From the NCBI RefSeq assembly GCF_024700885.2, contig NZ_CP117016.1: a stretch of 64,000 nucleotides of DNA. One strand, 5' to 3'. Below the pieces are notes generated by a model, which was given only the letters and a program-made list of their open reading frames with translations, was not told where the DNA came from and ran no database searches. The position numbers and the translations under genes were made by a program. This DNA is from Escherichia coli (lineage in GTDB: Bacteria > Pseudomonadota > Gammaproteobacteria > Enterobacterales > Enterobacteriaceae). Shown here piece by piece: positions 17,946 through 48,800 of the stretch (the first letter of the stretch is position 1; each line of letters starts with the position of its first letter).

Positions 17946-18001
17946 TGAAGGATGAAACTGCCGGAAGGCGATTAAACGCCATCCGGCAGCAAATCAAATA
18001 A

Positions 18002-19459
18002 TTACTTCGCCGGAATTTCTTTCAGCAGTTCAGTCAGCAGTGTCCAGTAATGACCAACGCTTTCGATATGAACCTGCTCATCCGGAGAGTGCGGACCGGT
18101 GATGGTTGGCCCGATAGAAACCATGTCCATTTCCGGATACGGTTTTTTAAACAGACCACATTCCAGGCCCGCGTGGATAATCTGGATGTTCGGCGTCTTG
18201 TTGAACAGACGCTGATAGGTTTCACGCACCAGGTGCATCACCGGAGAATTAGCGTCCGGCTGCCAGCCTGGATACGCGCCTTTCGCTTCGGTTTTCGCGC
18301 CAGCCAGTTTACCCAGCGAATCCAGCATGCTCACCACGTAGTCTTTACCGCTGTCGATCAGAGAACGGATCAGGCAGTGAATTTCTACGTTATTGTCAGT
18401 CATGGTCACCACACCGACGTTCAGGGAGGTTTCGACCACACCTTTTGCCACGTCGGAGTTGCGGATCACACCGTTCGGGGTAGCGTTCAGCAGACGAATA
18501 AAGGTATCGCGAGATTTCGCAATCAGGGCAGCTTTATCGTTCGCAACAGAGTCCAGCAGCAATGCCAGATTTTTCTCTTTCTCTGCCAGCTCGTTTTTCA
18601 GGATCTCCTGATAGGTATTCACCAGAGATTTCAGTGCGTCGACTTTATCAGCTGCGACAGCAATCGTCGCAAAGGCTTCACGCGGGATGGCGTTACGCAG
18701 TGTGCCACCGTTGAAATCGATAAGGCGCAGGTCCAGCTCTTCCGCATGACCCGCCAGGAAGCGCACCAGCAGTTTGTTGGCATTACCCAGGCCAACGTGG
18801 ATTTCACCGCCGGAGTGACCGCCTTTCAGGCCTTTTAAGGTTAACTTGAAGGTTTCAAAGCCAGCTGGAACCGCTTCACGATCTAAATGCAGGTTGGAGG
18901 TAAAGTCGATACCCCCCGCGCAACCCATGTAGATTTCACCTTCCTCTTCGGAGTCGGTGTTAATCAGAATATCAGCCTGCAACCAGTTGCTCTGTAAGCC
19001 AAAAGCACCATCCATACCGGCTTCTTCGGTCATGGTCAGCAGCACTTCCAGCGGGCCGTGAACCACGTTTTCGTCAGCCAGAACCGCCAGCGCAGACGCC
19101 ATACCAATGCCGTTATCCGCACCCAGCGTGGTGCCGCGCGCTTTAACCCATTCGCCATCAATATAAGGCTGGATAGGATCTTTAGTGAAGTCATGCACAG
19201 TGTCGTTATTTTTCTGCGGCACCATATCGAGGTGGGCCTGCAAGACGACCGGTTTACGATTTTCCATACCTGCGGTAGCAGGTTTACGAATCAGGATATT
19301 ACCTACCTGATCGCGTTCGACATGGAAACCTTTCTCTTTTGCCCAACCAACAATGTATTCAGCGAGTTGCTCTTCATGATAGGACGGGTGAGGAATAGAA
19401 CAGATTTTGGCAAAAATATCCCACAGCGGCTGTGGAGATAATTGAGACAGTTCAGACAC
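18002..19459 (-). CDS. pepD: cytosolic non-specific dipeptidase (aminoacyl-histidine dipeptidase)
   Basis: 485 aa M20-family peptidase starting MSELSQLSPQPLWDIFAKICSIPHPSYHEE. Confidence 0.95.
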   Translation of the reverse strand: MSELSQLSPQPLWDIFAKICSIPHPSYHEEQLAEYIVGWAKEKGFHVERDQVGNILIRKPATAGMENRKPVVLQAHLDMVPQKNNDTVHDFTKDPIQPYIDGEWVKARGTTLGADNGIGMASALAVLADENVVHGPLEVLLTMTEEAGMDGAFGLQSNWLQADILINTDSEEEGEIYMGCAGGIDFTSNLHLDREAVPAGFETFKLTLKGLKGGHSGGEIHVGLGNANKLLVRFLAGHAEELDLRLIDFNGGTLRNAIPREAFATIAVAADKVDALKSLVNTYQEILKNELAEKEKNLALLLDSVANDKAALIAKSRDTFIRLLNATPNGVIRNSDVAKGVVETSLNVGVVTMTDNNVEIHCLIRSLIDSGKDYVVSMLDSLGKLAGAKTEAKGAYPGWQPDANSPVMHLVRETYQRLFNKTPNIQIIHAGLECGLFKKPYPEMDMVSIGPTITGPHSPDEQVHIESVGHYWTLLTELLKEIPAK

Positions 19460-25837: not shown

Positions 25838-25913
25838 GCCGATATAGCTCAGTTGGTAGAGCAGCGCATTCGTAATGCGAAGGTCGTAGGTTCGACTCCT
25901 ATTATCGGCACCA
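25838..25913 (+). tRNA. thrW: tRNA-Thr (anticodon CGU)
   Basis: GCCGATATAGCTCAGTTGGTAGAGCAGCGCATTCGTAATGCGAAGGTCGTAGGTTCGACTCCTATTATCGGCACCA; cloverleaf with CGT anticodon; integration site for the downstream island. Confidence 0.95.
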
Positions 25914-26077
25914 TCACCTAGTTTTCCCAAGTCAACCCACATCAACAAAATCATTTAAAAACATATATATTACGTTGTTTTCATACGTTTGAGGTCAACC
26001 CTTGTCTCTTGAAATCAACACGCGGTTGGGGGCACAATCAGGGGCATGTTCTGTTCGGTCTAGGAAATGTGCCCCCA

Positions 26078-27268
26078 ATGATGCTGAATGCCCGCAAGGT
26101 TGAAGCTGCGAAAGGAAAAGAGAAGAGCTACAAGCTGTTTGATGGAGGTGGCCTATATCTTCAGGTCGAACCTAATGGCTCGCGTTACTGGCGTATGAAA
26201 TACCGTTTTGCTGGTAAAGAGAAACGATTGTCCTTTGGTGTTTATCCAACAGTCACACTTGCTGATGCCAGACAAAAACGAGAAGACGCGAAGAAACTAC
26301 TCGCAGCAGGTGAAGATCCCGGCGAAGTCAAAAAAGCCAAAAAGCAGGCTTTAAATGCAGCGATTGAGACACTTAACCCATTCAGAGAAGTGGCGTTAGA
26401 GTGGCACAAAATGAAATCACCCAAATGGTCTGAGGGCTATGCTTCCGACATCATTGAGGCATTCGAGAAAGACATTTTCCCGCATATTGGGCACAGACCT
26501 ATAGCTGATATTCAGCCCCTTGAACTGCTTGAAGTTCTGAGATTGATAGAAGCTCGAGGCGCTATGGAGAAAGCGAAGAAAGTCCGTCAGCGATGCGGTG
26601 AAGTTTTTCGCTATGCCATCGTAACGGGTAGGGCAATCTACAATCCGGCACCGGATCTTGCCAGTGCGATGCAAGGACATGAAGCAGTCCACTATCCATT
26701 CCTCAAAGCCAACGAACTACCGGAGTTCTTTAATGCCCTTAATTCTTATTCAGGAAGTCCAATTGTATTGTTGGGGGCGCATTTACTTATCCTGACAGGT
26801 CTACGAACTGGAGAACTACGAGCAGGTGAGTGGCGAGAGGTGGATTTTGATAATGCGGTGTGGGAGATCCCAAAAGAACGTATGAAAATGCGTAGGAGCC
26901 ATATTGTCCCGTTGTCAAAACAAGCATTATCCCATCTCAAAAGTTTGAAAGAACTAACTGGGAACTACCCGCTGATGTTCCCTGGACGCAACGATCCTAG
27001 CAAATTTATGAGTGAAGCAAGCATTAATCAGGTGTTTAAACGTATTGGATATGCAGGGCGTGTTACGGGGCATGGTTTCAGGCATACGATGAGTACAATC
27101 CTACATGAGAAAGGATTTAACAGCGCTTGGATTGAAACCCAGCTTGCTCATTCGGACAAAAACTCTATTCGTGGAATTTATAACCATGCCCAATATCTCG
27201 AAGGGAGAAGAGAAATGATGCAATGGTATGCTAATTATTTATCTGAGCTAATTGGTACTCATAAATGA
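26078..27268 (+). CDS. P4-type tyrosine integrase (tRNA-targeting)
   Basis: ORF 26009..27268; likely start at MMLNARK; C-terminal catalytic region with HGFRHT and conserved Tyr (RGIYNHAQYLEGRREMMQWY); directly beside thrW. Confidence 0.85.
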   Translation: MMLNARKVEAAKGKEKSYKLFDGGGLYLQVEPNGSRYWRMKYRFAGKEKRLSFGVYPTVTLADARQKREDAKKLLAAGEDPGEVKKAKKQALNAAIETLNPFREVALEWHKMKSPKWSEGYASDIIEAFEKDIFPHIGHRPIADIQPLELLEVLRLIEARGAMEKAKKVRQRCGEVFRYAIVTGRAIYNPAPDLASAMQGHEAVHYPFLKANELPEFFNALNSYSGSPIVLLGAHLLILTGLRTGELRAGEWREVDFDNAVWEIPKERMKMRRSHIVPLSKQALSHLKSLKELTGNYPLMFPGRNDPSKFMSEASINQVFKRIGYAGRVTGHGFRHTMSTILHEKGFNSAWIETQLAHSDKNSIRGIYNHAQYLEGRREMMQWYANYLSELIGTHK

Positions 27269-28089
27269 ATATTTTAAAAATTAATAATACTGATTCTCTG
27301 CTCAGAGATTACTACCAGTTGGATGAAGCTTCAGAAAAAATTGGTTGTAGTGAAAAGGATATACTCTGGTTTGCCAGAGAACGAGATGTAGAGCTATGCA
27401 TGGAATTCCATGATGATGAGTATGATGTTTCATGTGGTTTGAAGATTGATGGTCAAATGGATGAGTTCTTATCTAATCTGAAATATTTACCACGAGATAG
27501 AAATGGCAATATTATGTTGTCAGACTTAAGTTCTATAAGAATCCCTGATGAAGATAATTTAATTGATAAAAATGGTTTTATTCGATGTTTCATATCCGGT
27601 TTATGGGCTGTTGATTATGAATATAAAGATCTGTTAGTTAAGCATGAGGGGCAACCGGATTCCTGGCCTATTCATTTTCTACTGGCGGGTACGCCTAATA
27701 TAAATTGTAAGGTAATTCTTTATGTAAATTATGATGAAAAAGAAAATTATTATCTTTTTGAGGTTTTGTGGATTACAAAGGTACAGATTCAAAAATTCAT
27801 TGATATAGTCTTATGCGAACAAAAGCGGATAAAAAACGCCAATAAATATAAATCACAATCTGAGGCGCAAAAACAAAAACATGCTGTTCCTCGAGCTGAA
27901 ATACTCATGGCTATTATTTCGCTCTATCATCGTGATATGAGGCTAAGAAGAGAGAGTCCAGCAGCGATAGCTGATTATCTTTTTCAACATGCCAGTGAGT
28001 TCTGGCCTAAGACCGGAGAACCGCCTTTGAGCTATGATACTGTTGTTAGTTTGCTACGTAGTTGCATGAAAAACACTAAGTTTAACTAA
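27265..28089 (+). CDS. hypothetical protein (AT-rich island cargo, translationally coupled to integrase)
   Basis: 274-aa ORF whose ATG overlaps the integrase stop (ATGA); strongly AT-rich compared with flanking DNA; no recognisable motif. Confidence 0.55.
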   Translation: MNILKINNTDSLLRDYYQLDEASEKIGCSEKDILWFARERDVELCMEFHDDEYDVSCGLKIDGQMDEFLSNLKYLPRDRNGNIMLSDLSSIRIPDEDNLIDKNGFIRCFISGLWAVDYEYKDLLVKHEGQPDSWPIHFLLAGTPNINCKVILYVNYDEKENYYLFEVLWITKVQIQKFIDIVLCEQKRIKNANKYKSQSEAQKQKHAVPRAEILMAIISLYHRDMRLRRESPAAIADYLFQHASEFWPKTGEPPLSYDTVVSLLRSCMKNTKFN

Positions 28090-28214: not shown

Positions 28215-28421
28215 ATGTTATCTAAACATGATAATACTACTTTGCAACGACCTTCAATGGATTCTCTGATCGATATGAAGTTTATTACTTCCGATTGTTT
28301 ATTAAGTGATAAATGGATTTATCGATTGATTTCTCTGAATCGCTTTCCAAAACCTATAAAAATAGGTCGGATGTCACGATGGCGCGCTGCTGATTATTAT
28401 AAGTGGCGAGATGGGTTTTAA
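28215..28421 (+). CDS. alpA: AlpA/Vis-family phage transcriptional regulator (excisionase-like)
   Basis: 68 aa with the AlpA-like core ...RLISLNRFPKPIKIGRMSRWRAADYYKWRD. Confidence 0.7.
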   Translation: MLSKHDNTTLQRPSMDSLIDMKFITSDCLLSDKWIYRLISLNRFPKPIKIGRMSRWRAADYYKWRDGF

Positions 28422-28537
28422 GAAAACTCAGGTCAACATTTTGAGGGAATGAGAAATAAGGCAAGAGCAATTAATAAAGGGAATAGATTATCACCTACTC
28501 CCTAAGCCTTAATTGATAGTTAGTAATATTTAACTGA

Positions 28538-28711
28538 TTAGCCTTTAGGGTCAATCCCGCGTGATTGGAGTTCTTTGCGTAAAATTCTTTTAATCCAAGT
28601 TGCCAACGCGCTATCTCCATCTTTGCGCATTTCGTTTTCGAGTTGCAACCTAAAATCGTCGGTAAGACGCATTTGGAATGGTGGAGAACGTTTCTCTTGT
28701 GGTGTTGACAT
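28538..28711 (-). CDS. small Arc/MetJ-type (ribbon-helix-helix) DNA-binding protein, putative island repressor
   Basis: 57-aa minus-strand ORF (MSTPQEKRSPPFQMRLTDDFRLQLENEMRKDGDSALATWIKRILRKELQSRGIDPKG); below the ORF-track size cut-off; start codon overlaps the operator region. Confidence 0.45.
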   Translation of the reverse strand: MSTPQEKRSPPFQMRLTDDFRLQLENEMRKDGDSALATWIKRILRKELQSRGIDPKG

Positions 28712-28751
28712 GGTAATTACCCTAGAATATGATGACTACATGGTAATTACC
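28705..28751 (+). promoter_or_regulatory. sigma-70-like promoter (TTGACA-17-TATGAT) with two copies of the palindromic operator GGTAATTACC
   Basis: TTGACA at 28705-28710, 17-bp spacer, TATGAT at 28728-28733; catGGTAATTACC occurs at 28709-28721 and 28739-28751, 30 bp apart. Confidence 0.45.
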
Positions 28752-28842
28752 ATTGTAAGTATAGTTCGCTTGTAAAAGCAATGCCCGATTGTGCGGGAAC
28801 ACAAATCGGGCATTTAACCAACCGTTATAAGAGGTAACGAAG

Positions 28843-29019
28843 ATGGCTAAACAGAAGTGTACTTGGTTATTTGCGGCGATCAACCGCAGTCAACGCAATG
28901 CCCGTCCTGTGATGTTAAGGATCACCGCAGATAACGAGCGGTCAGCGCGGCGCAGACTTGCCCCGGACTATGTACTGAGCTTTGCCGGGCGCATTCCCTG
29001 CGGAGGTGAACATGCGTAA
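28843..29019 (+). CDS. small hypothetical protein (58 aa), first ORF of the rightward early transcript
   Basis: ATG with GAGG 8 nt upstream; MAKQKCTWLFAAINRSQRNARPVMLRITADNERSARRRLAPDYVLSFAGRIPCGGEHA; not in the ORF track (<60 aa). Confidence 0.3.
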   Translation: MAKQKCTWLFAAINRSQRNARPVMLRITADNERSARRRLAPDYVLSFAGRIPCGGEHA

Positions 29020-29371
29020 TTATCCGCACCCCGGCGAACGCTGGCAGCATGAACGTGGCTGGACGGTCACGATTATCCGATTAATAGAAGCATCGCCCTC
29101 TGTGGCACTGGTTAATCCTGAATTCAGCTGTGAAGTGCTGATACGTCATGACAGCGACAACCAGCTTTCTTCCTGCCCTCTGGCATGGTTTGAACAGCGG
29201 TATACGCGCCTGTTTGATGTACCGCTCTTTAAGCCTGCACCAGCTCCTGCAGGCGGTAGTGGTTCCGGCCCGCTGACACTGCATCCGTCTGTGCTATTTA
29301 TCCGCTGGCGGGAGCGTAGCATATGGCGTTCTGCTGAGCCTGACGACGGTCACTATTCAAAGTTTCTCTGA
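29012..29371 (+). CDS. hypothetical protein (island early region)
   Basis: ORF 28982..29371; ATG at 29012 with GGAGG 8 nt upstream; 119 aa, no recognisable motif. Confidence 0.4.
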   Translation: MRNYPHPGERWQHERGWTVTIIRLIEASPSVALVNPEFSCEVLIRHDSDNQLSSCPLAWFEQRYTRLFDVPLFKPAPAPAGGSGSGPLTLHPSVLFIRWRERSIWRSAEPDDGHYSKFL

Positions 29372-29687: not shown

Positions 29688-30067
29688 ACCAGCCGCAGGT
29701 TTCCATTTTCCCGGCAGAAATGACCACCGCGCTTTACCGGCGGGCTATTGCTTCAGCATGGCGGCAGAAAATGCTGAACGAAACTGGCAGTGATCAGTAT
29801 GGTCCGCACAGCCTGACGGTGGAGCGTATTGAAATGGCCATTGCGCTGCATATCGAGTGCGTACTGATTAACGAGTACGGCGAAGTGCAGGGCGCCGCTG
29901 CCGCGCTGGCACTGCTGACTGACATGCTGGAGCCGTCACTGCTGACCGCGCCGCCGGTACTGACCGCGCGCGGCTGTGAAGTGATGGCGGAGATGTACCG
30001 CACGCTTCCGGCGGCCTTTGATGACTTCTGCAGTACCGGTGTGACGTTGTATGAGGGGGAAGTATGA
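29684..30067 (+). CDS. hypothetical protein (island early region, precedes primase)
   Basis: 127-aa ORF, 4-nt overlaps with both neighbours. Confidence 0.4.
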   Translation: MNQPQVSIFPAEMTTALYRRAIASAWRQKMLNETGSDQYGPHSLTVERIEMAIALHIECVLINEYGEVQGAAAALALLTDMLEPSLLTAPPVLTARGCEVMAEMYRTLPAAFDDFCSTGVTLYEGEV

Positions 30068-32736
30068 CAATACAGACGGTTACGCAGATTTCAGCCGCCG
30101 CACGGGGGAAATGGCCCGTTATTCTGCAGATGCTGCGTATTGATGTACCTGAAAACGGCAGGCACGGTCCCTGCCCGAAATGTGGGGGCAAGGATCGTTT
30201 TCGCCTTGATGACCTTGACGGGCGCGGGACGTGGATCTGCAGCCAGTGTGGCAATGGTGACGGTCTGGATCTGGTTAAGCTCGTAACCGGTTACAGCGTC
30301 AGAAAGGCTGCGCAGGAGGTGGCGCAGGTGCTTAATGTGCCGAATATGCAGGAACTGCCTGTTAAGCCTGCCAGACAAAAAGCCCCTAAACGCGACATGG
30401 GTCTTACCGTGGCGGCGCTGATGAAAGAGAGCCACACGGGAGAAAGCGCCTATCTGACAGGAAAAGGGTTCGCCGGATACCCGGCCTCTCTGACCGGAAG
30501 CGTGCAGCATATCAGCGGTAAGGATTTCCCTGCCGGTTCCCTGCTGTTACCACTCACGACCAACACCGGAGCCGTGACCGGTGCACAGCTTATCGCCCCG
30601 ACGGGTGAAAAAAGCATACTGCCCGGCAGCACGATGAAAGGCGCGTTTGTGTCGCTCAGCCCGTTACCGTCTGAACCACCGGTACAGGTGGTGATTACCG
30701 AAGGTTACGCTACGGCGCTGACGGTAAGTCAGCTCACTGCCGGATGCGTAGTGGCTGCCATATCTGCGGGCAACCTGCCCAATGTGGCGCAGTCGCTGCG
30801 GGCACGCTGGCCTGAGGTAAAAATTATCATCGCCGGTGATAACGATTTTCAGGACGGAGATGAGAATCCCGGCAGAGCCTTTGCTGAACGGGCGGCAAAA
30901 GCTGTTGGCGGCTGGATGACGCTGCCACCAGGAGAGATTAAGGCTGACTGGAATGACTTTCATCGGGAGCACGGTATTACCCGTGCCCGTGAAGCCTTTC
31001 GCAACGGTCTGGTACTGTGCGGGGAAGGCCGCACGCAACTGCCGCACGGGTTCCGTCTTACCCAGGAATATCTCTGGTATGAAAAGCAGGTACAGCGCAA
31101 CGGTGAGACGGAGATCCAGAACGTCAAAATATGCAGCCCGCTGCGCGTGACGGCAATCACCTGCGATGCCGATGGCGGTAACTTCGGACGACTGCTGGAA
31201 TGGGAAGATACGTGGGGTGAGTGTCGCCGCTGGGCGATGCCGATGGAAATGCTGAGCGGCAGTGGTGAGGAACTGCGCCGGGTACTGCTGGTTAACGGGC
31301 TGTCTTATATCAGCACCACCGGTGAGGCACGCGCACGCCTGATGGAATATATCTCACTGTGTAAACCGGAACGCCGCGTGACCTGCGTCAGTCGTACTGG
31401 CTGGCATGGTCAGGTTTACGTCCTGCAGGATGAGGTCAGCGGTGAAGGTGCAGAGGGTGTCATTCTCCAGACCACTTCCGTGCAGGGGCGTGATTTCCGC
31501 GTGTCGGGCACAACAGAGGAATGGCGGGAGCATGTATCCCGCTACTGTACCGGCAACTCCCGCGTGGCATTTGCTGTCAGCCTGGCCTTTGCTGCACCAC
31601 TGTTACGGCTGGTTGGTATGGACGGCGGCGGCTACCACCTCAAAGGGGAATCGACAGACGGTAAGACCACCACCATGAAAGCGGCAACCTCCGTCTGCGG
31701 CGGGCCTGACTACTGGCAGACATGGCGGGCCACCGGCAACGCGCTGGAGGGATGCGCCAGCCGCCGCAACGATGCCGCCATGATGCTTGATGAGATCCGG
31801 GAAGTTGACGGACGCGAGGCAGGCAATATCGCCTACATGCTGGCAAACGGTCAGGGCAAGGGCCGTGCCGGTACGGACGGTGAGCTGCGTACCCGTAAGC
31901 AGTGGCGCCTGTTGTTCTTTTCAACTGGCGAGTTGTCTCTGACCGAACATGCGGCAAAGGCCGGTGAGCGTACTTTTGCCGGGATGGAAGTCAGGATGAT
32001 CCAGATCCCCAGCGATTCCGGGAAGTTTGGCGTTTTTGAGGAGCTGCACGGCTTCGACAGCGGCAAGGCTCTGGCAGAGCATCTTGAATGGGCCACGTCC
32101 TGCTACTACGGTTCGCCGTTCCGGGAGTGGCTGAAAGCACTGACCGCTGATCTTAACGGACTAACGGCACAGGCAAAATCGCTGATGAAGGAATATGCTG
32201 CCGCCCTGACTCCGAAAGATGCAGGCAATCAGGTGGGCCGGGCTGTGAACCGCTTTGCTCTGGTGGCGATGGCAGGTGAACTGGCAACCCGTCTGGGTAT
32301 CACCGGCTGGCCTGAGGGTGAAGCACTGCGGGCAACCCGCGTCTGCCTGAACGCATGGCTGAAAGATCGCGGGCACACCGCCAATCAGGAAGATATCGCC
32401 GCACTGGAGCAGGTTCGCAGTTTCTTTACCGCGAATCAGTACAGCCGCTTTGCAGACTGGTATGACGAGCGCAACCGCCCCGGCAATATGGTGGGCTGGC
32501 GCAGGGTGGAGAAAGGCAGTACCGCGCAGGGCACGGAAGCTGTCACTACGTTCTATGTCATGCCGTCCGGCTGGAAAGAAATCTGCAGGGGATTTGACCC
32601 GCGCAAGGTGGCGCGTCTGTGCGCAGATCGTGGATACCTGCTGCCCTCCACAGATGGCAAACTCCAGACAACCATTCGCCCGCCAGAGATGAATCCCCGC
32701 AGGCTCTATGTCTTCAACAGCGAGGTGCCTGGTTAA
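30064..32736 (+). CDS. P4 alpha-type primase/helicase (zinc-binding primase domain, Toprim, P-loop NTPase)
   Basis: 890 aa; N-terminal Cys4 zinc motif (CPKCGGKDRF...CSQCGNGDG), Toprim-like acidic region, Walker A GESTDGKTT. Confidence 0.88.
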   Translation: MTIQTVTQISAAARGKWPVILQMLRIDVPENGRHGPCPKCGGKDRFRLDDLDGRGTWICSQCGNGDGLDLVKLVTGYSVRKAAQEVAQVLNVPNMQELPVKPARQKAPKRDMGLTVAALMKESHTGESAYLTGKGFAGYPASLTGSVQHISGKDFPAGSLLLPLTTNTGAVTGAQLIAPTGEKSILPGSTMKGAFVSLSPLPSEPPVQVVITEGYATALTVSQLTAGCVVAAISAGNLPNVAQSLRARWPEVKIIIAGDNDFQDGDENPGRAFAERAAKAVGGWMTLPPGEIKADWNDFHREHGITRAREAFRNGLVLCGEGRTQLPHGFRLTQEYLWYEKQVQRNGETEIQNVKICSPLRVTAITCDADGGNFGRLLEWEDTWGECRRWAMPMEMLSGSGEELRRVLLVNGLSYISTTGEARARLMEYISLCKPERRVTCVSRTGWHGQVYVLQDEVSGEGAEGVILQTTSVQGRDFRVSGTTEEWREHVSRYCTGNSRVAFAVSLAFAAPLLRLVGMDGGGYHLKGESTDGKTTTMKAATSVCGGPDYWQTWRATGNALEGCASRRNDAAMMLDEIREVDGREAGNIAYMLANGQGKGRAGTDGELRTRKQWRLLFFSTGELSLTEHAAKAGERTFAGMEVRMIQIPSDSGKFGVFEELHGFDSGKALAEHLEWATSCYYGSPFREWLKALTADLNGLTAQAKSLMKEYAAALTPKDAGNQVGRAVNRFALVAMAGELATRLGITGWPEGEALRATRVCLNAWLKDRGHTANQEDIAALEQVRSFFTANQYSRFADWYDERNRPGNMVGWRRVEKGSTAQGTEAVTTFYVMPSGWKEICRGFDPRKVARLCADRGYLLPSTDGKLQTTIRPPEMNPRRLYVFNSEVPG

Positions 32737-32769: not shown

Positions 32770-32960
32770 AGGTGAAACAGGTGGAACAACCGTATTTTAC
32801 AGGGCTGAACCTGTTCCACCTTCTGAAATAGTGAGGTGGAACAGATGTAACGCCAGCCAATCCGCTGTTCCACCTTGTTACCCGCGATGTTCCACCGGTG
32901 CAGTGTATATAAATGCCTTATAAAACAAAGCCGTAACACATGTTTCACCTGTTCCACCGC
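32770..32960. repeat. iteron cluster (repeated GGTGGAACA/TGTTCCACC motif), candidate replication origin/crr
   Basis: At least six copies of the TGTTCCACC core in both orientations within about 190 bp directly downstream of the primase gene. Confidence 0.55.
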
Positions 32961-35289: not shown

Positions 35290-35520
35290 TATAATGCTCC
35301 TTACGCGTTATGGCATAGTTATATGCTAGTCGGGCGATTAGCCAGACTCGAACTTATTGAACGGTATTAGGGTTGCGCTTGGTGTGCCTCTGGATTGCAC
35401 TCCATGCTGTCGCGCAATCCAGAGGCACACCAAGCGCTTCCTTTAGGTAAGTGAGTAAAAACAGCACCTTCTTCGATTTATGATGAAGGTGCTGCAATCG
35501 TAACGTTTTTTGTATACACG
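35290..35520 (+). ncRNA. candidate retron msr-msd non-coding RNA
   Basis: Non-coding stretch directly upstream of the effector-RT pair with a perfect 24-bp stem (35375-35398 / 35414-35437, 15-nt loop) and a second 10-bp stem (35462-35471 / 35485-35494); exact ends and a1/a2 repeats not resolved. Confidence 0.55.
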
Positions 35521-35529
35521 GATAGTATA

Positions 35530-36498
35530 GTGGCTGAGACATACGAAGATAAAGTTGCTAATCATGTTTCAGAGTGGGAAATGGAAAATTTCCGTGTATG
35601 TTATGATGATCAGGTTATTTTCTTATGTGGTGCGGAAGTACTTCCTCAAGGAAGTGTTCAGACTTCAATGAGAGGGCATTTTTATCACTATTGCCTGAAT
35701 AAAAATAAAGATATAGCTGATAAAATAATTCTTGCCGAAAACTTCAAAAAATATCTTCAAAATAATCATTATCCAGACTTAATAACTTTTGAGCATGATG
35801 TTGCAAGTATATCTAGTTTAGTTGTTATTTTCTTGGAAAGCAGTGGTTCAATTGCTGAGTTAGGTGTTTTCTGTAATATTAGTGATGTCAATAAAAAATT
35901 ATTGATATTTGTTCCATCAGATGAAGTTGAAGGTGACAAGAAAGAGTCTTTCATTTACTTAGGGCCTTTATTGTTTTTAAAAGAAAAGGTCAATGAAAAA
36001 GCATTTAAGATTTATCCAAAACCCACTAATGGTTCTGATTACTCCGAGCATTTAGAGATTATGGCTGATGACTTGGCTGAACTATTACCTAGAAGTGGTA
36101 AGTTTGAAAGCTTCGATCCTGACAATTTAGGGCATATAGCTTTTCTTATATGCAGAATTGTGCATTTAGTAATGCCTATTAAGCTAAAGGAAATATTAAA
36201 TTGTTTAAAAATAATAGGTATCAATAAATATACTCTGACTGAGGTTGAAAGAATTTTGTTTTTATTGGAAACATTGGGTTTTATAAATATTTATCCGTAT
36301 GGCGATTTAAAATACTATTATTCAATGCAAGCCAGGCAAAATCTTAAATTAGGGAAAAATAAAACCGGATTCACAATCGATGAGGCTGGTATTTTTACTG
36401 ATATTAGTGTTTTTATCAATGACAATAAATTATGTAGTGATAAAAAAAGACGGCTGGTTTTGAAAGGCATTAAGGAGAAGCATAATGGACATAATTAA
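35530..36498 (+). CDS. retron effector candidate: nucleoside 2-deoxyribosyltransferase-like (NDT-like) protein with C-terminal putative DNA-binding region
   Basis: 322 aa (GTG start in the ORF track); Rossmann-like N-terminus with ESSGSIAELG motif resembling the NDT-family catalytic Glu region; overlaps the RT gene by 14 nt; AT-rich. Confidence 0.6.
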   Translation: MAETYEDKVANHVSEWEMENFRVCYDDQVIFLCGAEVLPQGSVQTSMRGHFYHYCLNKNKDIADKIILAENFKKYLQNNHYPDLITFEHDVASISSLVVIFLESSGSIAELGVFCNISDVNKKLLIFVPSDEVEGDKKESFIYLGPLLFLKEKVNEKAFKIYPKPTNGSDYSEHLEIMADDLAELLPRSGKFESFDPDNLGHIAFLICRIVHLVMPIKLKEILNCLKIIGINKYTLTEVERILFLLETLGFINIYPYGDLKYYYSMQARQNLKLGKNKTGFTIDEAGIFTDISVFINDNKLCSDKKRRLVLKGIKEKHNGHN

Positions 36499-37417
36499 AA
36501 AAATCGCAGATGAAACTCTAATGCCGGTATCAAAAGTATCTGCTTTTATATTTACAGCCCCATATAGATATAAAGTATATCCCATCCCCAAAAGGAATGG
36601 TGGGTTTAGGGAGATTGCTCAACCGTCAAGGGCATTAAAGTTTATGCAAAGGATTGTTATTGCTGAACTAGAGAAAGTACTTAAGGTTCATGAAAACGCA
36701 TATGCTTATGTCAAAGGACGTAGTATAAAAGATAATGTGGAAAAGCATCAAAGAAACTCTTATATTTTGAAAGTTGATTTCTGCGACTTTTTTAATAGCA
36801 TAAACCCTTACGACCTTGAGTTATGTTTAAAAAACAATGGGTTAGACTCATTGTTAAGCTCACAAGAATTATTGAATAAACTTTTTTTCTATAAGAAAAG
36901 TAAAAGAGGTGCTTTATCAATGAGCATCGGGGCACCTAGTTCTCCATTTTTGTCAAATGCGATTATGTATAAGTTTGATTCAGTCATTAGTGATATGTGT
37001 TCAAATAAAAATATTACTTATACAAGATATGCTGATGATCTTACATTTTCTACTAATGAAAAAGGTATTTTGTATGAATTCATACATGAAATAGATAAAG
37101 TTCTTGAGGAGATAGATAGTCCTAAATTAAAACTAAATGATAAGAAAACCATATTTGCATCTAAAAAATGCAATCGTCATATAACAGGAATTGTTATTAA
37201 TAACGAAGAAAAACTTTCAATTGGTAGAGATAAAAAACGTTACTTAAGTAGTTTAATTCATAAATTCTCGCTTAATGCACTTAATGAGGAAGGAGTTGAA
37301 CATTTAAAAGGGTATTTGGCGTATGTAAATAAAATTGAACCTTCATTCATTAGCAGAATGAAAAGGAAATATGGAGTCGAAGTTGTCAACTCCATAATCA
37401 CATTTAATCCATTATAA
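36485..37417 (+). CDS. retron-type reverse transcriptase
   Basis: 310 aa; RT motifs YRYKVYPIPKRNGGFREIAQPSRALK, VDFCDFFNSI, GAPSSPFLSNAIM, TRYADDLTFS (YADD active site), HITGIVI; distant resemblance to the Ec86 RT. Confidence 0.9.
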   Translation: MDIIKKIADETLMPVSKVSAFIFTAPYRYKVYPIPKRNGGFREIAQPSRALKFMQRIVIAELEKVLKVHENAYAYVKGRSIKDNVEKHQRNSYILKVDFCDFFNSINPYDLELCLKNNGLDSLLSSQELLNKLFFYKKSKRGALSMSIGAPSSPFLSNAIMYKFDSVISDMCSNKNITYTRYADDLTFSTNEKGILYEFIHEIDKVLEEIDSPKLKLNDKKTIFASKKCNRHITGIVINNEEKLSIGRDKKRYLSSLIHKFSLNALNEEGVEHLKGYLAYVNKIEPSFISRMKRKYGVEVVNSIITFNPL

Positions 37418-48552: not shown

Positions 48553-48800
48553 TGCATTGAATAATAAAAATGGCGCAAATGCAGCGCCATTTTTATAGGT
48601 TAAAAACATTGCTTTTTACTTTCTGAAGCAGATAGCCAGTGAGTACATCGCGCTACTTCAGGATGCTGTAGATCCGGAGAACACTATAGAGGAAGATGCA
48701 TTGTTGCTGGCAGATGGAAGAAGTTTCGGGTTTTGTTATCCCTGAAAAACGAAGCCCCGCGGTTATAGCTGGCGGGGCAGTGCAATTAATTATTGCATAT

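What the first reader, a model, noticed from the sequence alone, without database searches (positions are those of the whole stretch)
28780..28814. Perfect 11-bp inverted repeat in the early leader
aatgcccgatt-(13 nt)-aatcgggcatt lies between the operator/promoter and the first small ORF. It is not followed by a T run, so it is more likely a protein-binding site or leader RNA structure than a terminator.
Basis: seen in the sequence. Interest (0 to 1): 0.15.

Follow-up and report, generated by a model that had tools for sequence, protein, structure and literature searches.

The report
SymR-like antisense RNA's terminator hairpin
The inverted repeat is real. It is most likely the end hairpin of a small antisense RNA, related to E. 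coli SymR, that lies opposite the start of a cell-division-inhibitor gene (kil/icd-like) in a P4-like phage satellite and probably keeps that toxic gene silent.

Summary
The perfect 11-bp inverted repeat (28780-28790 / 28804-28814, 13-nt spacer) is present as described and is not a chance feature. It lies in the early leader of a P4-like satellite integrated at tRNA-Thr, between an operator-flanked promoter and a Kil/Icd-like ORF.

Relatives keep a hairpin at this position but change its sequence by compensatory substitutions. Of 23 distinct variants, 22 fold more stably on the minus strand (51 G·U pairs against 10), and a T-rich tail follows only on that strand.

The repeat is the 3' stem-loop of a predicted ~77-nt minus-strand RNA (28848→28772). 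This RNA starts 3 nt after the kil ATG and carries the anti-Shine-Dalgarno sequence in a loop. Its promoter, TTGATC-16-TACACT, is embedded in kil codons 5-14, exactly where synonymous variation drops to zero.

Rfam's SymR model is the best match here, though below its threshold. A model built only from kil-linked RNAs finds K-12 SymR and 22 of 22 other symE-linked SymRs at the right place and strand.

No expression data are available. I rate it a new variant of a known kind, of moderate interest.

The parts
28780..28814 (-). The inverted repeat itself. It forms hairpin 2, the 3' stem-loop or terminator-like hairpin of the predicted antisense RNA. Its complement forms a weaker hairpin in the sense leader.
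   Evidence: It folds more stably on the minus strand (-20.0 to -21.1 vs -18.7 to -19.3 kcal/mol). In relatives, 12 of 14 pairs show changes on both sides.
28772..28848 (-). Predicted ~77-nt cis-antisense RNA of the SymR family. Its 5' end AGCCAU is at 28848, 3 nt past the kil ATG. Its 3' end lies after GCUUUU at about 28772-28776.
   Evidence: Rfam SymR is the best family match on the minus strand, 28848..28777 (31.6 bits, E 6e-4). Model R1 scores 90.7 bits at 28772-28848 (-). The consensus structure is 98% paired.
28817..28847 (-). Hairpin 1 of the antisense RNA. The outer helix pairs GCCA (28847-28844) with UGGU (28820-28817). The inner stem pairs CGUUA (28839-28835) with UAACG (28827-28823). 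The loop CCUCUUA (28834-28828) carries the anti-Shine-Dalgarno sequence.
   Evidence: The conserved motif YTRACCA next to the repeat on the + strand is the 3' side of the outer helix.
28856..28883 (-). Predicted promoter of the antisense RNA, embedded in kil codons 5-14. The -35 is TTGATC (28883-28878), followed by a 16-nt spacer, the -10 TACACT (28861-28856), 7 nt, and +1 A at 28848.
   Evidence: The geometry is invariant in 13 unique coding variants. Synonymous variation is zero at codons 2, 5, 6, 13 and 14, against 0.32-0.43 in spacer codons 10-12. It averages 0.17 for codons 2-15 and 0.41 for codons 16-52. K-12 SymR has the same layout, with its -10 TAGAAT 7 nt from +1.
28843..29019 (+). 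kil/icd-like ORF (58 aa), the first gene of the early operon. Its Shine-Dalgarno sequence (AAGAGG, 28829-28834) and ATG (28843) are covered by the antisense RNA.
   Evidence: NCBIfam NF033153 'host cell division inhibitor Icd-like', 84 bits. It is 54% identical to the Kil region of phage P4 (tblastn E 2e-7).
28705..28733 (+). Early (sense) promoter TTGACA-17-TATGAT. The predicted start is near 28740, which places the repeat at about +41 to +75 of the leader.
   Evidence: 11 of 12 matches. A TTGACA-like -35 followed by an operator is conserved in relatives.
28708..28751 (.). Two copies of the operator-like repeat ACATGGTAATTACC (28708-28721 and 28738-28751; palindromic core GGTAATTACC).
   Evidence: D2, I1. 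The same two-site layout occurs with at least nine different site sequences in relatives.
28538..28711 (-). Divergent 57-aa putative ribbon-helix-helix repressor. Its ATG overlaps the -35 of the early promoter.
   Evidence: It is 41% identical (E 3e-13) to the repressor of symE-linked cassettes, which matches Pfam HicB above its cut-off and RHH families weakly. The window protein itself has no direct Pfam or NCBIfam match.
28752..28781 (-). Inferred repressor promoter TTGCTT (28781-28776), 18-nt spacer, TACAAT (28757-28752). Its -35 overlaps the base and tail of the hairpin.
   Evidence: Read from the sequence. TACAAT/TATAAT and TTGYTT recur at the same spacing in L007, L022 and L030. This is inference only, and the promoter scan did not call it.

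Best explanation
The inverted repeat encodes the 3' stem-loop of a small cis-antisense RNA transcribed from the minus strand (28848→about 28772). The stem-loop probably acts as a terminator and stabiliser.

The RNA's promoter (TTGATC-16-TACACT) sits inside codons 5-14 of the kil/icd-like gene, and transcription starts 3 nt after its ATG. The RNA is fully complementary to the 5' UTR, Shine-Dalgarno sequence and start codon of kil, the first gene of the early operon of a P4-like satellite. It has two hairpins. Hairpin 1 presents the anti-Shine-Dalgarno sequence in its loop. Hairpin 2 is the inverted repeat.

By analogy with SymR/symE, I infer that the RNA pairs with the early leader and blocks ribosome binding. 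This would keep leaky Kil synthesis off while the divergent RHH-type repressor holds the early promoter down. By analogy with P4, leaving kil untranslated may also have polar effects on the downstream replication genes.

Shown here: the structure, its strand, its conservation, the promoter-shaped constraint on synonymous sites, and kinship with SymR. Inferred: expression, the 3' end, and the repressive effect.
For: The hairpin's position is conserved upstream of kil/icd-like genes in Escherichia, Enterobacter, Citrobacter, Pseudocitrobacter, Pantoea and Regiella genomes, and in IMG/VR viral contigs and metagenome contigs of unknown host, with different arm sequences.

An alignment-free strand test favours the antisense strand. 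It is more stable in 16 of 16 variants and in 22 of 23 in the extended set. G·U pairs number 51 against 10, and the tail holds 5.3 T against 1.9.

Covariation supports the fold. On a MAFFT alignment 98.1% of cells pair, 7 pairs change on both sides, and 0 of 500 shuffles reach the observed score. On the wider model-fitted alignment, 17 of 23 pairs change on both sides, including 12 of 14 in the repeat helix.

The promoter is invariant across 13 coding variants. Synonymous variation vanishes exactly at +1, -10 and -35 but not in the spacer.

Rfam SymR is the top family at this site and strand, with matching 5' ends (also L005). Model R1, trained only on kil-linked RNAs, finds annotated K-12 symR at its exact start (24.1 bits). 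It also finds a symE-linked SymR in a metagenome (44.4 bits) and 21 of 21 symE-homolog loci from IMG/VR at ATG+5 on the antisense strand (24.6-57.6 bits). The noise ceiling in 128 kb is 19.1 bits.

The -10 of SymR, 7 nt upstream of its +1 and embedded in the target ORF, was verified by mutation, and SymR represses SymE translation (PMC1891008).
Against: There is no transcript evidence of any kind.

The antisense promoter matches consensus at only 8 of 12 positions, and the promoter scan did not call it.

The terminator scan did not call the hairpin either. The window's tail has only four U (GCUUUUAC), and one variant class (L001) has no U tract. The T-rich tail could instead reflect the -35 or upstream region of the repressor promoter.

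The Rfam SymR score (31.6 bits) is well below the gathering score (61). Part of the similarity, the anti-Shine-Dalgarno sequence and CAU, is forced by any antisense RNA covering a translation start.

The sense-strand hairpin is also stable (-19.3 kcal/mol) and could have a role of its own. Many variants are phylogenetically related, so counts overstate the number of independent events. Alignment A4 was fitted to the model.
Confidence: 0.7

Rival explanations
1. The functional element is the hairpin in the sense early leader (+ strand). It would act as an mRNA stabiliser, a processing site, or part of an attenuation or antitermination signal, with no antisense RNA involved.
For: The repeat lies at about +41 to +75 of the transcript predicted from the strong early promoter. 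The + strand hairpin is stable (-19.3 kcal/mol, z -4.4). P4 regulates the homologous leader through RNA structures on the sense strand (PMC10111431).
Against: In relatives the + strand version carries C·A and A·C mismatches where the - strand has G·U pairs, and it is less stable in 22 of 23 variants. No T tract follows on the + strand. No C4/CI-type RNA is detectable here. This reading explains neither the promoter-shaped synonymous constraint inside kil nor the kinship with SymR. In antisense systems the sense hairpin usually exists as the target, so this is more a partial truth than a true rival.
Confidence: 0.12
2. The hairpin is only an insulating terminator on the minus strand. It would stop stray transcription from entering the repressor promoter and gene, and any short transcript that ends there would have no regulatory role.
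For: A T-rich tail follows on the minus strand in most variants. The hairpin sits immediately upstream of the inferred repressor promoter.
Against: The conserved element is the whole 77-nt two-hairpin unit with a fixed 5' end at ATG+5, not just the terminator. A promoter-like constraint lies just upstream. In the homologous SymR, the short RNA was shown experimentally to be the regulator.
Confidence: 0.1
3. The palindrome is a DNA-binding site for a dimeric protein, such as the divergent repressor, the AlpA/Vis-like protein or a host factor.
For: It is a perfect palindrome next to a regulated promoter. The arms vary between islands, as operator specificities do.
Against: The operator role is already filled by two copies of ACATGGTAATTACC placed over the -35/-10 spacer and the start site. 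The same operator type occurs with different hairpin sequences (window, L007, L030, L022). Near-identical hairpins occur with different operators (L001, L005, L014, L077). Stems contain bulges, length changes and strand-asymmetric wobble pairs, which matter for RNA but not for duplex DNA.
Confidence: 0.05
4. The repeat is a chance palindrome with no function.
For: None beyond its small size.
Against: Shuffles give 0.34 such repeats per window. Position and pairing are conserved across genera through compensatory changes.
Confidence: 0.01

Closest known systems
SymR (RyjC) antisense RNA of the symE/symR type I toxin-antitoxin locus, E. coli K-12 (Rfam RF01809; Kawano et al. 2007, PMC1891008)
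   Same: Both are about 77 nt, with a 5' end 3 nt after the target's start codon (AGUCAU in SymR, AGCCAU here). Both have a promoter embedded in the target ORF with the -10 placed 7 nt from +1. Both have two hairpins, with the anti-Shine-Dalgarno sequence in the first and a GU...AC apex in the second. Detection is reciprocal: Rfam SymR finds the window, and R1 finds K-12 SymR plus 22 of 22 other symE-linked SymRs. Some symE-linked SymRs share identical hairpin-2 apices with kil-linked RNAs.
   Different: The target here is a Kil/Icd-like cell-division inhibitor, not the AbrB-fold SymE. The score is below the Rfam gathering threshold. The sense promoter is controlled by a dedicated divergent RHH-type repressor with its own operators, not by LexA. 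The target heads a satellite replication operon rather than being a solitary toxin gene. Most variants have a U-rich tail that K-12 SymR lacks.
CI RNA immunity of satellite phage P4 (Rfam C4 family RF01695, with seqA/seqC targets) upstream of kil
   Same: Both occupy the same genomic slot, the leader between the vis/alpA-like gene and kil at the head of the operon that ends in the alpha primase. Both use an RNA that pairs with the leader of the same operon. Kil is homologous in the two elements.
   Different: P4's RNA is processed from the sense leader and acts through complementary sites. No C4, isrK or a1b1 element is detectable in the window, and R1 finds nothing in P4. Here the RNA is a true cis-antisense transcript and comes with a protein repressor.
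c4 antisense RNA / icd-ant (immI) of phages P1 and P7
   Same: A small RNA masks the ribosome-binding site of an Icd-family cell-division-inhibitor gene at the head of an operon (from established knowledge of P1 immI, recalled and not tested here).
   Different: c4 is encoded upstream on the same strand and acts through short complementary boxes. It belongs to a different RNA family, C4, which was not detected here.
Rho-independent (intrinsic) terminator
   Same: A G+C-rich stem of 11-14 bp is followed, on the minus strand, by a T-rich stretch, with runs of 7-9 T in L022, L031, L048 and L009.
   Different: In the window the tail is only GCUUUUAC, offset by 2 nt, so it fails the scan's rule. 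One variant class has no U tract at all.

Membership tests
SymR antisense RNA (Rfam RF01809) | Score at or above Rfam's curated gathering threshold (61 bits) | tested here: not met
   31.6 bits, E 6e-4 in a targeted 801-nt scan, with no hit at the gathering threshold. L005 scores 24.9 bits.
SymR antisense RNA (Rfam RF01809) | [quoted passage not shown] | tested here: met
   The model alignments place position 1 at 28848, with the ATG at 28843-28845. The same register holds in K-12 and in all 21 symE loci. This is a prediction from sequence, not a mapped 5' end.
SymR antisense RNA (Rfam RF01809) | Two-hairpin secondary structure | tested here: met
   RNAalifold consensus, 98% of cells paired, covariation in hairpin 2 and in the inner stem of hairpin 1.
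SymR antisense RNA (Rfam RF01809) | Promoter embedded in the target's coding sequence | tested here: met
   TTGATY-16-TA[C/A/G]ACT-7-A is invariant. Synonymous sites are frozen at -35, -10 and +1 only. The verified SymR -10 has the same geometry. Promoter activity was not measured.
SymR antisense RNA (Rfam RF01809) | Detectable common ancestry with bona fide SymR RNAs | tested here: met
   R1, which contains no SymR sequence, hits K-12 symR (24.1 bits), L112 (44.4 bits) and 21 of 21 IMG/VR symE loci (up to 57.6 bits). The noise ceiling is 19.1 bits.
SymR antisense RNA (Rfam RF01809) | Target gene is symE | tested here: not met
   The target is an Icd/Kil-like protein.
Type I toxin-antitoxin system | A toxic protein whose translation is repressed by an antisense RNA | not testable with these tools
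   Toxicity is inferred only from family names (Icd-like; P4 Kil 'functions in cell killing', PMC10111431). Repression is inferred from complementarity.
Intrinsic terminator | G+C-rich hairpin immediately followed by a U tract | tested here: inconclusive
   The scan called it on neither strand. The minus-strand tail is GCUUUUAC. Relatives average 5.3 T in 10 nt, with up to T9 runs, but the L001 class has none.
C4 / P4 CI immunity RNA (Rfam RF01695, CL00128) | Match to the C4, isrK or c4-a1b1 covariance models in the kil leader | tested here: not met
   No hit even at E up to 10 in 28400-29200. P4 itself gives 74.9, 60.8 and 44.1 bits for the three models.
Repressor operator (protein-binding palindrome) | Sequence co-varies with the cognate repressor or operator type and overlaps core promoter elements | tested here: not met
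   Hairpin type and operator type are uncoupled. The repeat lies 40-75 nt downstream of the early start site.
P4-like satellite (context of the element) | Integrase, alpA/vis-like gene, alpha-type primase, sid, psu and delta | tested here: met
   Phage integrase domains, Phage_AlpA, Toprim+DUF927 primase, two Psu-family proteins (PHROG 6165 is sid-like; PHROG 6366 is psu), Ogr_Delta and DUF5375. The gene order matches the P4 left operon.

The most novel reading that the evidence does not exclude
A portable three-part control cassette gates different toxic first genes, Kil/Icd in some elements and SymE in others. The three parts are a small divergent RHH repressor, a pair of operators, and a SymR-type cis-antisense RNA.

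In a large subfamily of P4-like satellites this cassette has replaced the CI-RNA immunity system of P4. The antisense RNA would then be a second, RNA-level immunity factor of the satellite. The LexA-controlled symER locus of E. coli K-12 would be a rewired, domesticated derivative of the same cassette.
Probability: 0.4. Interest if true: 0.65.

Novelty: new variant of a known kind. Interest (0 to 1): 0.5.

Why it matters
P4 is the textbook phage satellite, and its immunity is famously RNA-based (CI RNA). This locus suggests that many P4-like satellites use a different solution at the same position. Matches to the 601-nt region occur in 332 of 5,426 complete E. coli genomes, and related elements occur in other enterobacteria. 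The solution is a protein repressor plus a SymR-type cis-antisense RNA masking the translation start of the Kil cell-division inhibitor.

It would also widen the SymR family, so far tied to symE, to a second, unrelated toxic target. It points to modular exchange of repressor, operator and antisense units between satellites and defence-island toxins.

The prediction is cheap to test with a Northern blot, a silent -10 mutation and a kil'-'lacZ fusion. It also gives annotators a covariance model for an RNA gene that current pipelines miss.

Tried and rejected
1. P4-type CI/C4 immunity RNA in the leader. No C4, isrK or a1b1 hit appears even at E up to 10, whereas P4 scores strongly for all three.

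2. A P4-like seqA/seqB/seqC arrangement. A third copy of the left arm (GCAATGCCCG...TGTG, 28895-28911, D1/I2) lies inside kil. Relatives keep that coding sequence while their hairpins differ (L001, L002), so it does not co-vary. I treat it as coincidence or coding constraint.

3. A terminator on the + strand. No T run follows, and the scan finds nothing.

4. A protein-coding explanation. A 53-aa minus-strand ORF (28722-28883) spans the repeat, but the homologous stretch varies in length (73-80 nt) by steps that are not multiples of three, which would break any reading frame.

5. Direct family assignment of the 57-aa divergent ORF. Pfam, NCBIfam, PHROGs and PDB sequence searches all failed. The RHH assignment rests on 41% identity to a homolog that matches HicB/RHH models.

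6. The broad Rfam E-value scan of 11 relatives recovered SymR only in L005, because the filters tighten with search size.

7. The degenerate metagenome pattern returned mostly unrelated DNA, and only 9 of 80 loci carried the RNA.

8. Six literature searches found no description of an antisense RNA to kil/icd in P4-like elements. The library holds open-access papers only, so this is not proof of absence.

Full report
OBSERVATION. The repeat is exactly as described. AATGCCCGATT (28780-28790) and AATCGGGCATT (28804-28814) are perfectly complementary with 13 nt between them. With one bulged A the stem extends to 14 bp around a 6-nt loop. The + strand RNA folds at -19.3 kcal/mol, z = -4.4. Perfect repeats of at least 11 bp with 3-20 nt spacers give 13 k-mer hits (8 sites) in the window, against 0.34 expected from dinucleotide shuffles. 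It is not a chance feature.

CONTEXT. The window carries a P4-like satellite integrated next to tRNA-Thr (25838-25910; proA-tRNA-Thr flank in an identical RefSeq locus). Its genes, in order, are:
- an integrase (26009-27268);
- an unassigned 274-aa ORF;
- an AlpA/Vis-like gene (28215-28421);
- a divergent 57-aa ORF (28538-28711, minus strand);
- the early operon on the + strand: a 58-aa Icd-like protein (28843-29019; NF033153, 84 bits), two unknown ORFs, DUF5375, and a Toprim/DUF927 primase (30064-32736);
- sid-like, psu and delta genes, followed by a retron.

The 58-aa protein is 54% identical to the Kil region of phage P4, and the gene order matches P4's left operon. A near-consensus promoter, TTGACA-17-TATGAT (28705-28733), is overlapped by two copies of ACATGGTAATTACC. 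This places the repeat at about +41 to +75 of a roughly 103-nt leader.

CONSERVATION. Matches to the 601-nt region 28500-29100 occur in 332 of 5,426 complete E. coli genomes. In two large groups, similarity to the window begins inside or just after the repeat, at window 28783 or 28817. Upstream of those points the regulatory region is replaced.

I collected the region upstream of kil/icd-like genes from several sources:
- other E. coli genomes (L001, L002);
- 11 loci in genomes of other taxa: Enterobacter, Pseudocitrobacter, Citrobacter, Pantoea, Regiella and an unclassified Enterobacteriaceae MAG;
- 16 IMG/VR contigs;
- metagenome contigs.

All of them have a hairpin at the same distance from the ATG, but with many different arm sequences.

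WHICH STRAND. The variants repeatedly carry C·A or A·C mismatches on the + strand. These read as G·U or U·G wobble pairs on the - strand. An alignment-free comparison confirms the bias:
- In the first set, the minus-strand hairpin is more stable in 16 of 16 distinct variants (mean -21.7 vs -16.6 kcal/mol; 44 vs 6 G·U pairs; Wilcoxon p = 4e-4).
- In the extended set it is more stable in 22 of 23 (51 vs 10 G·U pairs).
- The 10 nt after the stem hold 5.3 T on average on the minus strand and 1.9 on the plus strand, with T7-T9 runs in several variants. In the window the tail is GCTTTTAC.

The structure under selection is therefore in a minus-strand transcript. On that strand the hairpin looks like a terminator of moderate quality, one that the strict scan did not call.

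THE WHOLE RNA. On the minus strand the sequences fold into one common two-hairpin unit of about 77 nt.
- The 5' end AGCCAU is the complement of AUGGCU, so the RNA would start 3 nt after the kil ATG.
- An inner stem presents the anti-Shine-Dalgarno sequence CCUCU in its loop.
- UGGU closes an outer helix with the 5' GCCA. This explains the conserved YTRACCA motif next to the repeat on the + strand.
- Hairpin 2, the repeat itself, and its tail follow.

On a plain MAFFT alignment of 14 variants, 98.1% of cells pair and 7 pairs change on both sides. No shuffle out of 500, and no slid register, approaches the observed score. On a wider alignment of 18 RNAs, which was fitted to the model and so leans towards it, 17 of 23 pairs change on both sides, including 12 of 14 in the repeat helix.

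PROMOTER. Immediately upstream on the minus strand, inside kil codons 5-14, lies TTGATY-16-TA[C/A/G]ACT-7-A(+1). It is invariant in 13 unique coding variants. A synonymous-site test on 21 unique coding sequences gives:
- a pairwise synonymous difference of 0.17 for codons 2-15, against 0.41 for codons 16-52;
- zero variation exactly at codons 2 (+1), 5-6 (-10) and 13-14 (-35);
- ordinary variation (0.32-0.43) at spacer codons 10-12.

This is the footprint expected of a promoter embedded in a coding sequence. The promoter matches consensus at only 8 of 12 positions and was not called by the scan.

RELATION TO SymR. A permissive Rfam scan of 28400-29200 gives one notable hit, SymR, on the minus strand at 28848..28777. 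The model is matched end to end at 31.6 bits and E 6e-4, below the gathering score of 61.

K-12 SymR has a comparable layout. [quoted passage not shown] Its first bases AGUCAU are the complement of AUGACU (PMC1891008).

I built covariance model R1 from kil-linked RNAs only.
- It finds every kil-linked locus on the minus strand. Scores are 64-94 bits, and 26-32 bits for the most divergent variants (L010-L012, L031, L111, L048, L042).
- It finds the annotated K-12 symR at its exact start (24.1 bits, E 3.5e-5).
- It finds an RNA antisense to a 42%-identical SymE homolog in a metagenome contig (44.4 bits).
- It finds 21 of 21 SymE-homolog loci from IMG/VR, always on the antisense strand with the 5' end at ATG+5 (24.6-57.6 bits).
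- The highest background score in the 64-kb window, both strands and filters off, is 19.1 bits.

The symE-linked loci share more than the RNA:
- They have a divergent small repressor 41% identical to the window's 57-aa ORF (E 3e-13). That homolog matches Pfam HicB above its cut-off and RHH families weakly.
- They use the same operator types as some kil-linked loci: GTACGTACC as in L010, and GGCCACC as in L031.
- Their hairpin-2 apices are identical to kil-linked ones. L155 has UGUGUUCCCGCACA, as in the window. L154 has GGUAUUGCGAGUACC, as in L010.

I conclude that the kil-linked RNAs and SymR are one family. The repressor-operator-antisense unit appears to be exchanged as a module between different toxic genes. 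Part of the sequence similarity (the anti-Shine-Dalgarno sequence and CAU) is functionally forced, so the Rfam E-value alone would be weak evidence. The intermediates scoring 44-58 bits and the shared apices are what make the case.

MECHANISM.
Shown: a conserved, covarying, minus-strand two-hairpin element; a promoter-shaped constraint; complete complementarity to the kil Shine-Dalgarno sequence and AUG; kinship with SymR.

Inferred:
- The RNA is made constitutively. It ends at the repeat, which serves as its terminator and 3' stabiliser.
- It pairs with the early leader and blocks ribosome binding, as SymR does for symE. SymR represses translation, is in about 10-fold excess over its target mRNA, and also works in trans.
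- It thereby sets a threshold against leaky Kil synthesis while the RHH-type repressor holds the early promoter.
- Convergent transcription from the early promoter over the antisense promoter would add mutual interference.

By analogy with P4, failure to translate kil may also reduce expression of the downstream replication genes. In P4, leader RNA interactions terminate the transcript and kil/eta translation prevents that termination (PMC10111431). This last step is speculative.

P4 itself carries C4/CI, isrK-like and a1b1 elements in this slot and has no R1 match. The window has none of them. The immunity module differs between the two elements.

RIVALS.
- A stand-alone sense-leader hairpin is disfavoured by the strand asymmetry. 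The sense hairpin probably exists as the antisense RNA's target.
- A protein-binding palindrome is disfavoured because hairpin type and operator type are uncoupled, and because the stems show RNA-type wobble pairs and bulges.
- A purely insulating terminator does not explain the fixed 5' end, the promoter constraint or the homology with SymR.
- Chance is excluded.

NOVELTY AND VERDICT. Cis-antisense control of a small toxic gene is a known kind, and SymR is a known family. What appears new is a SymR-type RNA paired with a Kil/Icd target at the head of a P4-like satellite's early operon, in place of CI RNA and coupled to a dedicated repressor. I found no description of it in six searches of an open-access library. 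No expression data exist, so this remains a strong sequence-based prediction. My confidence is about 0.85 that the repeat belongs to a conserved minus-strand RNA structure, and about 0.7 for the full antisense-repressor reading. Interest is 0.5.

Noticed in passing
window 35296-35365 (msr), 35530-36498, 36485-37417: Retron inside the satellite. It comprises an Rfam msr hit (53.4 bits, just above the gathering score of 52), a 322-aa ORF with no Pfam match, and a 310-aa reverse transcriptase (RVT_1). It lies downstream of delta, where P4-like satellites are known to carry defence cargo.
   Followed up: partly
window 32771-32958: Eight copies of TGTTCCACC/TGTTTCACC, in both orientations, cluster within 188 bp just after the primase gene. 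They resemble the ori/crr iterons of P4 that the alpha protein binds. The perfect 11-bp inverted repeats at 32811/32834/32865 found are part of this cluster.
   Followed up: partly
L154-L174 (IMG/VR contigs of 7-79 kb, mostly 9-16 kb) and L112 9184-9818: SymE homologs sit in a stand-alone cassette (small RHH-like repressor, paired operators, SymR, symE). They often lie at the very end of satellite-sized viral contigs, next to RhuM-like or retron genes. This suggests that symER units travel as cargo of mobile elements and are not always LexA-controlled as in K-12.
   Followed up: partly
window 28889-28911: A third, imperfect copy of the hairpin's left arm (GTCAACGCAATGCCCG...CCTGTG) lies inside the kil ORF, and the right arm could pair with it. 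It does not co-vary with the hairpin in relatives, so it is probably coincidental.
   Followed up: yes
window 48558-48758: Full-length match to Rfam IS009 (190.7 bits), a candidate small-RNA region of E. coli. It lies outside the satellite.
   Followed up: no
window 27265-28089: A 274-aa ORF between the integrase and the alpA-like gene has no Pfam, NCBIfam or PHROG match. The corresponding slot holds different genes in related satellites (639-bp and 882-bp ORFs in L001 and L002), so it may be a second variable cargo position.
   Followed up: no
window 17949-18006 (-): This is the best background hit of model R1 (19.1 bits). It is an ordinary terminator-like hairpin (CTGCCGGA...TCCGGCAG followed by TTT) after a coding region and is unrelated to the finding.
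   Followed up: yes
relatives L001-L031; window 28705-28751: At least nine different operator sequences occupy the same two positions around a conserved TTGACA-type -35: GGTAATTACC, GTGCGATTCAC, GTGGGCCACAC, TGTAATGTG/CACATTACA (inverted-repeat arms), GTACGTACC, GTGGAACAC, GTGGCCACC, GTGTCGGACAC and TTGTCAAC. Each comes with a different small divergent ORF. This looks like a diversified set of satellite immunity types.
   Followed up: partly
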